64,000 nucleotides of DNA from the NCBI RefSeq assembly GCF_056746865.1, contig NZ_CM163382.1; one strand, 5' to 3'. A program made the position numbers and the translations under genes. Positions 1,903 through 3,150 of this stretch are shown in pieces. How positions within the stretch are numbered: position 1 is the first letter of the stretch; each line of letters begins with the position of its first letter. The notes under the pieces were generated by a model that saw only the letters and a list, made by a program, of their open reading frames with translations, made no database searches and was not told the DNA's origin.

Positions 1903-1974
1903 TTGCCAAAGTAAAGCAGTGTAAAAGGCATGTAACAGACCATTGACTGACTGAATGGTCTGTCATACTTTGTT

Positions 1975-2133
1975 ACCTGCAAAGGGGAGTAACTTCATTG
2001 CCGGTCGATCGTCATTACGATGTGTGAAAAACCACATCCGGTCACCGGGCAACCCGAAAGGAATACGCAGACGTATTCCTTTTTTGTTGTAAGTGAGACC
2101 TTGCCGGAAGGCGAGGTCTATGCATAAAAAGCA
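1975..2133 (+). promoter_or_regulatory. sraF: alx 5' leader: yybP-ykoY-type (Mn2+/alkaline-pH responsive) riboswitch element, also known as SraF
   Basis: Conserved-looking motifs aaaggggagta (about 1981) and gtgagaccttgccgg (about 2094) directly upstream of alx; family assignment is from established knowledge of the alx leader. Confidence 0.6.
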
Positions 2134-2167
2134 GCGGCTGACGTCTTCCGACGTTGGCCGTTTTTTT
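2134..2167 (+). terminator. Leader attenuator hairpin followed by a T7 run, upstream of the alx start codon
   Basis: Imperfect GC-rich inverted repeat (cggctgacgtc ... gacgttggccg) followed by ttttttt at 2161-2167, 18 nt before the alx ATG. Confidence 0.55.
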
Positions 2168-2184
2168 ATGTGTAAGGAACTTCT

Positions 2185-3150
2185 ATGAATACTGTCGGCA
2201 CGCCGTTGCTATGGGGCGGATTCGCTGTTGTTGTCGCCATTATGCTGGCTATCGACCTGTTGTTGCAGGGGCGTCGTGGGGCACATGGCATGACCATGAA
2301 ACAGGCTGCGGCCTGGTCGCTGGTCTGGGTGACGCTGTCGTTACTGTTTAACGCCGCTTTCTGGTGGTATCTGGTGCAAACCGAAGGTCGCGCCGTTGCC
2401 GATCCACAGGCACTGGCCTTTCTCACGGGTTATCTGATTGAGAAATCGCTGGCGGTCGATAACGTCTTTGTCTGGCTGATGTTGTTCAGCTATTTCTCTG
2501 TTCCGGCGGCGTTACAACGGCGCGTGCTGGTGTATGGCGTGCTCGGGGCGATTGTTCTGCGTACCATCATGATCTTCACTGGCAGCTGGCTGATTTCGCA
2601 GTTCGACTGGATCCTGTATATCTTCGGTGCCTTCCTGCTGTTTACCGGCGTGAAGATGGCGCTGGCCCATGAAGATGAATCAGGCATTGGCGACAAGCCG
2701 CTGGTGCGCTGGCTACGCGGTCATTTGCGCATGACCGACACCATCGACAACGAGCATTTCTTTGTGCGTAAGAATGGCTTGCTGTATGCCACGCCGCTGA
2801 TGCTGGTGCTGATTCTGGTGGAATTGAGCGACGTGATTTTCGCCGTGGATAGCATTCCGGCTATCTTCGCCGTGACCACTGACCCGTTCATTGTGCTGAC
2901 CTCAAACCTGTTTGCGATCCTCGGCCTGCGTGCGATGTATTTCCTGCTGGCGGGCGTAGCAGAACGTTTCTCGATGCTCAAATATGGCCTGGCGGTGATT
3001 CTGGTGTTTATCGGTATCAAGATGCTGATTGTCGACTTCTACCATATTCCAATCGCCGTCTCGCTGGGCGTGGTGTTTGGCATTCTGGTGATGACGTTTA
3101 TTATCAACGCCTGGGTGAATTATCGGCATGATAAGCAGCGGGGAGAATGA
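2185..3150 (+). CDS. alx: TerC-family inner-membrane protein Alx (putative Mn2+ exporter)
   Basis: 321-aa multi-pass membrane ORF; sequence recognised; sits downstream of the riboswitch leader. Confidence 0.93.

What the first reader, a model, noticed from the sequence alone, without database searches (positions are those of the whole stretch)
1975..2184. alx leader: yybP-ykoY-type riboswitch with a downstream attenuator hairpin and U-run
The roughly 200-nt untranslated leader ahead of alx carries motifs reminiscent of the Mn2+-sensing yybP-ykoY riboswitch (also described as a pH-responsive element, SraF). A hairpin with a T7 tract at 2134-2167 sits just before the alx ATG, consistent with transcription attenuation control. 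It is a known element, but one of the few cis-regulatory RNAs in the window and easily missed by ORF-only annotation.
Basis: partly seen in the sequence, partly recalled or inferred. Interest (0 to 1): 0.35.

Follow-up and report, generated by a model that had tools for sequence, protein, structure and literature searches.

The report
Known alx manganese/pH riboswitch leader
This is the well-studied E. coli alx leader, an atypical three-way-junction member of the yybP-ykoY manganese riboswitch family that also responds to alkaline pH; it is already known, and the only new point is that the standard Rfam model and RefSeq annotation miss it.

Summary
Window 1978-2184 is the 207-nt 5' leader of E. 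coli alx (TerC-family Mn2+ exporter). It holds the yybP-ykoY L1 core GGGGAGUA, its 3' partner GAGACC, an L3 loop, and a 13-bp hairpin (2133-2162) with a T7 run (2161-2167) 18 nt before the ATG.

The identity is right and already published: SraF, PRE, alx Mn2+/pH riboswitch, aptamer crystal structure PDB 9JGM. Published nucleotide numbers map exactly with +1 = 1978.

Rfam RF00080 gives no hit at E<=10 here or in 20 orthologous loci, and scores the sister mntP aptamer only 41.6 bits (gathering 45). alx lacks P2 and has a shorter L3.

Independent support comes from 67 enterobacterial leaders. P3.1, P3.2 and the P4 base covary. The terminator P6 covaries. The P5 and P6 loops covary with each other, which supports a mutually exclusive antiterminator (ON) helix.

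The hairpin is the mapped intrinsic terminator D. Published reporters show translation as the main output (68x pH, 21x Mn) and transcription as minor (5x, 2.7x).

Verdict: already known, low interest.

The parts
1943..1971 (+). alx promoter: -35 TTGACT (1943-1948), 17-nt spacer, -10 TACTTT (1966-1971)
   Evidence: TTG of the -35 box and the T, A and final T of the -10 box are invariant in 74 orthologous upstream regions. The spacing fits +1 at 1978. The consensus scan did not call it because the -10 matches only 3 of 6. Inferred, not mapped here.
1978..1978 (+). Transcription start (+1) implied by the published numbering
   Evidence: With +1 = 1978, published A11, U17, U18, C19, A20, G23, A37, A114, A115, G134 and A137 fall on the matching bases. 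Termination products of about 108 and 190 nt then end in the T-runs 2080-2085 and 2161-2167.
1979..2105 (+). Mn2+-sensing aptamer, alx-type three-way junction
   Evidence: Own covariance model R1, built from 66 orthologues, scores 128.8 bits here and has no other match in the window. It also finds 61-111-bit matches in loci not used for training. 99% of cells are paired, with 16 pairs changed on both sides against 2-8 in slid controls.
1982..1995 (+). 5' strand of the right leg: P1.1 (1982-1985), L1 5' GGAGUA (1986-1991, A11 = 1988), P1.2 (1992-1995)
   Evidence: Invariant in 67 leaders. It pairs with 2099-2102 and 2091-2094. The same GGGGAGUA core is found in mntP.
1996..2000 (+). L2 capping loop CAUUG, which replaces helix P2
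   Evidence: Only 5 nt separate P1.2 from P3.1, so there is no room for a P2 helix. Published C19.G23 pair and 3-nt cap. The sequence varies among species.
2001..2048 (+). Left leg: P3.1 (2001-2005 and 2007-2011 with 2039-2048), L3 UCAUUAC (2012-2018, A37 = 2014), P3.2 hairpin (2019-2038)
   Evidence: P3.1 has 5 of 10 pairs with compensatory changes and P3.2 has 5 of 6; 98-99% of cells are paired. L3 is UCAUUAC in 70 of 80 enterobacterial leaders.
2050..2089 (+). P4 hairpin, which is intrinsic terminator B (stem 2056-2083, T-run 2080-2085)
   Evidence: Terminator-like site. The base CAAC/GUUG covaries at 3 of 4 pairs. The interior varies greatly in length and often has no U-run in other genera. 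About 46% termination in vitro at about 108 nt.
2090..2105 (+). 3' switch strand UAAGUGAGACCUUGCC: P1.2 3' (2091-2094), L1 3' (2095-2098), P1.1 3' (2099-2102)
   Evidence: Invariant in all aligned leaders. It pairs either with 1982-1995 in the aptamer or with 2110-2119 in P5.
2096..2119 (+). P5 hairpin (OFF state): 2096-2105 with 2110-2119, loop GGAA
   Evidence: Inverted repeat I4. 91.5% paired across species with no compensatory changes, because the 5' arm is fixed by the aptamer. -17.7 kcal/mol. The published G134A mutation (2111) locks the active form.
2105..2150 (+). ON-state antiterminator helix: 2105-2113 pairs with 2142-2150. It is mutually exclusive with P5 and P6.
   Evidence: Inverted repeat I6. 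98.8% paired, with 3 pairs changed on both sides. The P5-loop and P6-loop haplotypes covary: GGAA/UUCC, GAAU/AUUC, GAAA/UUUC, GGCA/UGUC. It corresponds to the published P5/P6 helix.
2133..2167 (+). P6 hairpin (2133-2145 with 2150-2162) plus T7 run (2161-2167). This is intrinsic terminator D and the 3' end of SraF.
   Evidence: 13 pairs, 7 G-C. Present with a U-run in every aligned leader, 94.4% paired, 3 pairs with compensatory changes. -19.8 kcal/mol. Mapped termination at about 190 nt, 13% and 10%.
2174..2187 (+). Shine-Dalgarno AAGGAA (2174-2179) and alx start codon (2185-2187)
   Evidence: In the E. coli MFE, 1986-1995 pairs with 2174-2183. That pairing is only 69% conserved in the E. coli register and is not above shuffles across species.
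2185..3150 (+). alx CDS, a TerC-family Mn2+ exporter and the regulated gene
   Evidence: Pfam TerC PF03741, E = 1.3e-53. RefSeq annotation 'Mn(2+) exporter Alx'.

Best explanation
Window 1978-2184 is the 5' leader of E. coli alx. It is a kinetically acting ON-riboswitch of the yybP-ykoY (Mn2+) family with an unusual three-way-junction aptamer.

When Mn2+ docks the L1 and L3 loops, the P1.1/P1.2 clamp holds the 3' switch strand (2091-2102). Alkaline pH makes this docking more sensitive. P5 then cannot form. Its downstream arm (2105-2113) pairs instead with 2142-2150, which prevents the P6 terminator and keeps the L1 5' strand away from the RBS. The result is read-through and translation of the Mn2+ exporter Alx.

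Without Mn2+, P5 (-17.7 kcal/mol) strips the switch strand out of the 4-bp P1.1. P6 folds and some polymerases terminate at the T7 run, producing the ~190-nt SraF RNA. In the read-through transcripts the freed L1 strand occludes the RBS.

Shown here: the anatomy, conservation and covariation of the aptamer stems, of P6 and of the ON helix, and the mutual exclusivity of the helices. Taken from the literature: Mn2+ binding, the pH effect, the termination sites and the reporter fold-changes. Inferred: the order of events.
For: Locus identity. Alx is a TerC-family protein, the family of B. subtilis YkoY (the YkoY assignment is established knowledge).

Motifs: the L1 clamp pattern is unique in the window (0 of 100 shuffles) and is shared with mntP.

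Covariation over 67 leaders: P3.1 at 5 of 10 pairs, P3.2 at 5 of 6, P4 base at 3 of 4, ON helix at 3 of 9, P6 at 3 of 13. Overall 99% of cells are paired against 27-43% in slid controls.

Mutually exclusive inverted repeats I4, I5 and I6.

Energetics: by secondary structure alone, OFF beats ON by about 24 kcal/mol at 190 nt, so ON needs ligand and a kinetic window. Equilibrium folding does not reproduce the switch.

Literature: 3WJ aptamer, P5, P6 and P5/P6 models and co-transcriptional probing. Crystal structure 9JGM, and A37 and L2 mutants. Terminators B and D. Reporters at 5x and 2.7x transcriptional against 68x and 21x translational.
Against: Rfam RF00080 does not detect the element at any threshold tried. 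My alx-type model gives the mntP aptamer only 2.5 bits at E = 0.66. Family membership therefore cannot be shown by covariance models, and rests on short motifs, context and published structures.

P1.1, P1.2 and the 5' arm of P5 are invariant, so covariation says nothing for or against them.

The RBS:L1 occlusion helix is not conserved: 69% paired in the E. coli register, with a mean duplex z of -0.36 over 65 species.

Published probing finds only modest Mn-dependent differences in the expression platform in vitro.
Confidence: 0.9

Rival explanations
1. It is primarily a transcription attenuator. Ligand binding mainly decides whether P6 and the T7 run terminate transcription, and RBS control is incidental.
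For: P6 plus a U-run is present in every aligned leader and covaries, and so does the mutually exclusive antiterminator helix. The RBS:L1 pairing is not conserved across species. The transcriptional reporter rises 5x with pH and 2.7x with Mn, which the authors attribute to hairpin D. SraF accumulates as a discrete RNA.
Against: In E. coli the translational reporter responds 68x and 21x, far more than the transcriptional one. Termination at D is only about 13% against 10% in vitro and is hardly pH-dependent. Constitutive termination at B (about 46%) dominates transcript loss.
Confidence: 0.12
2. It is a ligand-free pH sensor, the original PRE model. Alkaline pH lengthens RNA polymerase pauses and so redirects folding, with no metal involved.
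For: This is the historical model from lacZ fusions and DMS probing, summarised. The switch is clearly kinetic.
Against: Pauses are shorter, not longer, at alkaline pH. The A37U mutation abolishes the pH response, and alkaline pH raises cytoplasmic Mn2+. The invariant L1 and L3 metal-site residues argue for ligand binding.
Confidence: 0.04
3. The leader chiefly encodes a trans-acting small RNA: SraF, the ~190-nt product terminated at D.
For: It was discovered as an sRNA. It ends at a conserved strong hairpin plus U-run.
Against: No target or trans phenotype appears in any paper read here. All conserved blocks are explained by the cis aptamer and platform. This reading is not exclusive with the riboswitch role.
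Confidence: 0.03
4. It is not a yybP-ykoY relative at all. The motifs are a chance resemblance, as the null Rfam result would suggest.
For: RF00080 gives no hit at E<=10. P2 is absent. The reciprocal covariance model is not significant.
Against: The clamp pattern matches 0 of 100 shuffles and is shared with mntP. The helix order P1-P3(L3)-P4 is the same and is supported by covariation. The downstream gene is a TerC-family exporter. Published crystal structure and Mn response.
Confidence: 0.01

Closest known systems
E. coli alx riboswitch / PRE / SraF (literature; aptamer structure PDB 9JGM)
   Same: It is the same element. The sequence is 100% identical to many E. coli chromosomes, and every published nucleotide number maps with +1 = 1978.
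   Different: Nothing differs. The analysis here only adds comparative covariation for the ON helix and P6, the non-conservation of the P4 terminator and of the RBS:L1 pairing, and the Rfam false negative.
E. coli mntP yybP-ykoY riboswitch (canonical 4WJ; Rfam RF00080)
   Same: Both share the GGGGAGUA L1 core, the GAGACC 3' L1 strand, a P3 helix with an asymmetric L3 loop, a P4 hairpin, a P1.1 switch helix and an Mn2+-exporter gene downstream.
   Different: mntP has a P2 helix, where alx has a 5-nt L2 cap. The mntP L3 is ACAUACU in context UCAACAUAC, and the alx L3 is UCAUUAC, 2 nt shorter. mntP has no terminators in its leader and no pH response. RF00080 scores mntP at 41.6 bits and alx at nothing.
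B. subtilis / L. lactis yybP-ykoY transcriptional Mn2+ riboswitches
   Same: They have the same terminator, antiterminator and P1.1 logic. Holding the P1.1 3' strand in the aptamer prevents terminator formation (the family mechanism is established knowledge).
   Different: In those the terminator is the main output. In E. coli alx, termination at D is weak and translation dominates. An extra helper hairpin, P5, sits between the aptamer and the terminator.

Membership tests
yybP-ykoY Mn2+ riboswitch (Rfam RF00080) | Covariance-model score at or above the Rfam gathering threshold (45 bits) | tested here: not met
   No RF00080 match at gathering over the whole window, or at E<=10 on 381 nt and on 135 nt. 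None in 20 orthologous loci. Positive control: mntP scores 41.6 bits, E = 6e-10. The Rfam 15 consensus shown has no P1 pairs and no 3' GAGACC strand, and it requires P2.
yybP-ykoY Mn2+ riboswitch (Rfam RF00080) | Conserved L1 internal loop: 5' GGGGAGUA opposite 3' GAGACC, flanked by P1.1 and P1.2 | tested here: met
   1984-1991 and 2095-2100. Invariant in 67 leaders. Unique in the window with 0 of 100 shuffles, and shared with mntP. It is the only segment my covariance model aligns to mntP.
yybP-ykoY Mn2+ riboswitch (Rfam RF00080) | P3 helix interrupted by an L3 loop that carries the Mn-coordinating adenosine | tested here: met
   P3.1 and P3.2 covary at 10 of 16 pairs. L3 UCAUUAC at 2012-2018 is nearly invariant, in 70 of 80 leaders. 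A2014 is the published A37. The sequence differs from the family consensus ACAUACU.
yybP-ykoY Mn2+ riboswitch (Rfam RF00080) | Four-way junction with helices P1-P4 | tested here: not met
   Only 5 nt (1996-2000) lie between P1.2 and P3.1 in all leaders, so P2 is absent and the junction is three-way. This agrees with the published 3WJ.
yybP-ykoY Mn2+ riboswitch (Rfam RF00080) | The 3' strand of P1.1 pairs alternatively with the expression platform | tested here: met
   2096-2105 is complementary to 2110-2119 (P5), 91.5% paired across species. P5 is mutually exclusive with P1.1.
yybP-ykoY Mn2+ riboswitch (Rfam RF00080) | Lies upstream of a metal-exporter gene (TerC/YkoY, MntP/YebN, YybP and similar) | tested here: met
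   The downstream ORF matches TerC PF03741, E = 1.3e-53. It is annotated as Mn(2+) exporter Alx.
yybP-ykoY Mn2+ riboswitch (Rfam RF00080) | Binds Mn2+ and activates expression in response | not testable with these tools
   Literature only: 21x translational induction by Mn2+, Mn-bound crystal structure 9JGM, and loss of response in A37U.
Intrinsic terminator / attenuator | G+C-rich hairpin immediately followed by a U-run, conserved, with a competing antiterminator | tested here: met
   2133-2162 plus T7. Present in all aligned leaders with 3 covarying pairs. The competing helix 2105-2113/2142-2150 covaries.
Intrinsic terminator / attenuator | Termination efficiency changes with the signal | not testable with these tools
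   Literature: 13% against 10% in vitro at pH 7.2 and 8.5. Transcriptional reporter 5x with pH and 2.7x with Mn.
Translational (RBS-sequestering) riboswitch | An anti-RBS segment complementary to the SD or start region, released in the ligand-bound state | tested here: inconclusive
   In E. coli, 1986-1995 pairs with 2174-2183 in the MFE, with a duplex of -10.4 kcal/mol and z = -1.7. Across species the register is 69% paired with no covariation, and the mean z is -0.36. Published probing and reporters support it in E. coli.

The most novel reading that the evidence does not exclude
Across Enterobacterales, the conserved and selected output of the alx-type riboswitch may be the P6 terminator and antiterminator decision, that is transcription attenuation. 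The L1:RBS occlusion that dominates in E. coli would then be a lineage-specific addition. Separately, the alx-type three-way-junction aptamers form a subclass that the Rfam RF00080 model cannot see, so surveys based on Rfam mis-state where it occurs.
Probability: 0.2. Interest if true: 0.35.

Novelty: already known. Interest (0 to 1): 0.15.

Why it matters
The element has been characterised for more than 15 years, so its biology is not news.

The useful outcome is practical. The curated Rfam model and PGAP annotation miss this riboswitch in E. coli, and the Rfam model also misses it in 20 other enterobacterial species tested. Pipelines that rely on covariance models therefore leave it unannotated, and family-wide surveys that start from Rfam sequences omit the true alx orthologues.

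One such survey reports the alx L3 loop as restricted to Bacillales. Here it is present in 70 of 80 enterobacterial alx leaders. A dedicated alx-type model would fix both problems. A 122-position model built here scores 61-129 bits on the matches it reported.

Tried and rejected
1. Rfam scans at gathering and at E<=10 on 64 kb, 381 nt and 135 nt found nothing for RF00080. The low-scoring hits (STnc370, STnc240, RydC and others) are just the terminator-like hairpins and were rejected as chance.

2. A reciprocal test with my own alx-type covariance model against the mntP aptamer was not significant: 2.5 bits, E = 0.66. Homology between the two E. coli elements cannot be shown this way.

3. Equilibrium folding with P1 enforced was meant to predict the ON state, but P6 stays folded and SD accessibility does not rise. 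Thermodynamic modelling is not informative for this kinetic switch.

4. The test for conservation of RBS:L1 pairing, in the alignment register and per species by duplex energy, gave no support.

5. Dambach et al. 2015 could not be retrieved. Its content is cited only through later papers.

6. The outer arm of the promoter-spanning inverted repeat (1928-1934/1974-1980) is only 43% paired across species and was rejected.

Full report
**Locus and observation.** The window is E. coli chromosome. The interval 1880-2260 is 100% identical to many E. coli genomes and lies between ygjR (898-1902) and alx (2185-3150), both on the + strand. Alx matches Pfam TerC at E = 1.3e-53.

GGGGAGTA is at 1984-1991. 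A 13-bp hairpin is at 2133-2162, followed by T7 at 2161-2167. The SD AAGGAA is at 2174-2179 and the ATG at 2185. The leader folds at -96.3 kcal/mol, z = -6.9 against shuffles. It is >=99% identical in 5119 of 5419 E. coli genomes.

**The proposed decisive test fails, but as a false negative.** Rfam 15 at gathering thresholds finds only RNase P RNA in the window. RF00080 is absent from the leader even at E<=10 on 381 nt and on 135 nt. It is also absent from 20 orthologous loci from other genera. PGAP and the MG1655 record annotate nothing there.

As a control, the sister E. coli mntP aptamer scores 41.6 bits (E = 6e-10), which is itself below the gathering score of 45. The consensus printed has a P2 hairpin, a longer L3 (UCAACAUAC), no P1 pairing and no 3' GAGACC strand. 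Those are the features in which alx differs, or the only ones it shares. This is my inference for why the model misses it.

**What the literature says.** This is the SraF / PRE / alx riboswitch. Stephen et al. (NAR 2025, PMC12153347) describe a yybP-ykoY aptamer with a three-way junction (no P2), an intrinsic termination site in P4 and a divergent L3. They describe a translational expression platform with helices P5 and P6 in the OFF state, where P6 is an intrinsic terminator and the RBS pairs with the freed L1/P1.1 strand. An alternative P5/P6 helix forms in the ON state.

[quoted passage not shown] It shows that the L2 cap and the L3 loop couple pH to Mn2+ sensing.

In vitro transcription maps termination at about 108 nt (site B, about 46%) and about 190 nt (site D, about 13% at pH 7.2 and 10% at pH 8.5). 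Reporters give 5x (pH) and 2.7x (Mn) at the transcriptional level, against 68x and 21x at the translational level. The authors attribute the transcriptional part to hairpin D.

All published nucleotide numbers (A11, U17, U18, C19, A20, G23, A37, A114, A115, G134, A137) map onto the window with +1 = T1978. The two termination products then end in the two T-runs.

**Independent comparative evidence.** I fetched 80 alx orthologue loci from Escherichia to Pantoea, Erwinia and Winslowiella. GGGGAGTA is exact in 78 of 81 leaders.

In an alignment of 67 normal-length leaders (A1), three blocks are invariant or nearly so: L1/P1 5' (GCAAAGGGGAGTAACTT), the L3 core, and the 3' switch strand (GTAAGTGAGACCTTGCCG).

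Pair counts on an explicit structure:

| Helix | Pairs with compensatory change | Cells paired |
|---|---|---|
| P3.1 | 5 of 10 | 99.1% |
| P3.2 | 5 of 6 | 97.9% |
| P4 base | 3 of 4 | 99.3% |
| ON helix 2105-2113/2142-2150 | 3 of 9 | 98.8% |

Overall 99% of cells are paired, against 27-43% when partners are slid. P1.1 and P1.2 never vary, so they are uninformative.

For the OFF state, P6 is 94.4% paired with 3 covarying pairs and a U-run in every aligned leader. P5 is 91.5% paired without covariation, because its 5' arm is fixed by the aptamer.

The covarying ON-helix positions lie in the loops of P5 and P6. The haplotypes are GGAA/UUCC, GAAU/AUUC, GAAA/UUUC and GGCA/UGUC. These positions are unconstrained in the OFF hairpins, so the signal speaks specifically for the alternative helix. 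The published G134A (2111) up-mutation fits: it weakens P5 and turns a G.U pair of the ON helix into A-U.

**What is not conserved.** The interior of P4 ranges from a 4-bp stem with a short loop to more than 60 nt. In many genera it has no U-run, so terminator B is lineage-specific.

The E. coli RBS:L1 pairing is only 69% paired in register and shows no covariation. Per-species duplex energies between the L1/P1 strand and the RBS region are not better than shuffles: mean z is -0.36, 4 of 65 have z < -2, and E. coli is -10.4 kcal/mol at z = -1.7.

Equilibrium folding does not reproduce the switch. By secondary structure alone, OFF is about 24 kcal/mol more stable than ON at 190 nt. This fits a kinetic, ligand-assisted decision made while nt 2106-2119 emerge.

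**Membership.** Covariance-model criteria fail in both directions, and the four-way junction criterion is not met.

The criteria that are met:
- the L1 clamp (unique in the window, 0 of 100 shuffles, shared with mntP)
- the P3/L3/P4 order with covariation
- the switch-strand logic
- the TerC gene context

Mn2+ binding cannot be tested here, but it is published together with a crystal structure. I therefore file it as a bona fide but architecturally atypical family member, as the literature does.

The hairpin plus T7 is a real, conserved terminator with a conserved antiterminator, so 'consistent with attenuation' is correct. In E. coli, however, the measured transcriptional effect is small compared with the translational one. 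My best account is therefore a dual-output ON switch dominated by translation, at least in E. coli. The comparative pattern leaves open that attenuation is the more widely conserved output: the terminator and antiterminator covary, while RBS occlusion does not (probability about 0.2).

**By-product.** My 122-position alx-type model (R1) scores 128.8 bits in the window with no other hit. It scores 61-111 bits on loci it was not trained on. L3 UCAUUAC is present in 70 of 80 enterobacterial leaders. A preprint that sampled only Rfam RF00080 sequences reports that L3 as restricted to Bacillales. The Rfam blind spot shown here is the likely cause.

**Verdict.** The mechanism is partly right. The element is already known, and interest is low.

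Noticed in passing
window 34308-34684 (-): Bacterial RNase P class A RNA (rnpB): 318.6 bits, E = 1.7e-103. It is the only Rfam gathering-level hit in the window.
   Followed up: no
window 1935-1963 (and 1928-1980): A perfect 10-bp inverted repeat, ACAGACCATT/AATGGTCTGT, straddles the alx -35 box just downstream of the ygjR stop. The inner stem is 69% paired over 74 species, against 31-37% in slid controls, with double changes at 8 of 10 pairs. The outer arm is not supported. It could be a ygjR 3' hairpin or an operator.
   Followed up: partly
L003 (Escherichia albertii) 905-1085: A REP/BIME-like insertion of about 190 nt sits inside the P4 hairpin of the aptamer, with a duplicated P4 arm. It has weak Rfam hits to the REP-derived naRNA4 and ES036. 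The rest of the riboswitch is intact.
   Followed up: partly
L030 (Atlantibacter sp. RC6) 1085-1203: This is a natural deletion of the aptamer core, from P3 through the 3' switch strand. The junction is at the repeated CTTGCCG. The L1 5' strand, the P5 3' arm, terminator P6 and the SD are kept. The sister species A. hermannii (L033) is intact.
   Followed up: partly
L014, L015, L024, L058, L055, L028, L057, L071: These leaders are 245-400 nt long, with extra DNA between the aptamer and the ATG (Siccibacter, Superficieibacter, Erwinia persicina and others). The aptamer itself is still detected at 62-104 bits.
   Followed up: no
L017:1020-1065 and L077:1015-1060 (approximate): There are 35-45-nt insertions in the apical loop of P3.2 in Phytobacter massiliensis and Winslowiella iniecta, so that loop tolerates large insertions.
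   Followed up: no
window 2123-2130 and 2163-2170: The A-tract CATAAAAA upstream of P6 is perfectly complementary to TTTTTATG after it. In the MFE this extends P6 into a long helix, an arrangement typical of bidirectional terminators.
   Followed up: no
literature versus loci L003-L082: Preprint PMC12934788 states that the alx L3 sequence UCAUUAC is restricted to Bacillales, based on Rfam RF00080 sequences. Here it is in 70 of 80 enterobacterial alx leaders, and RF00080 detects none of those tested.
   Followed up: yes
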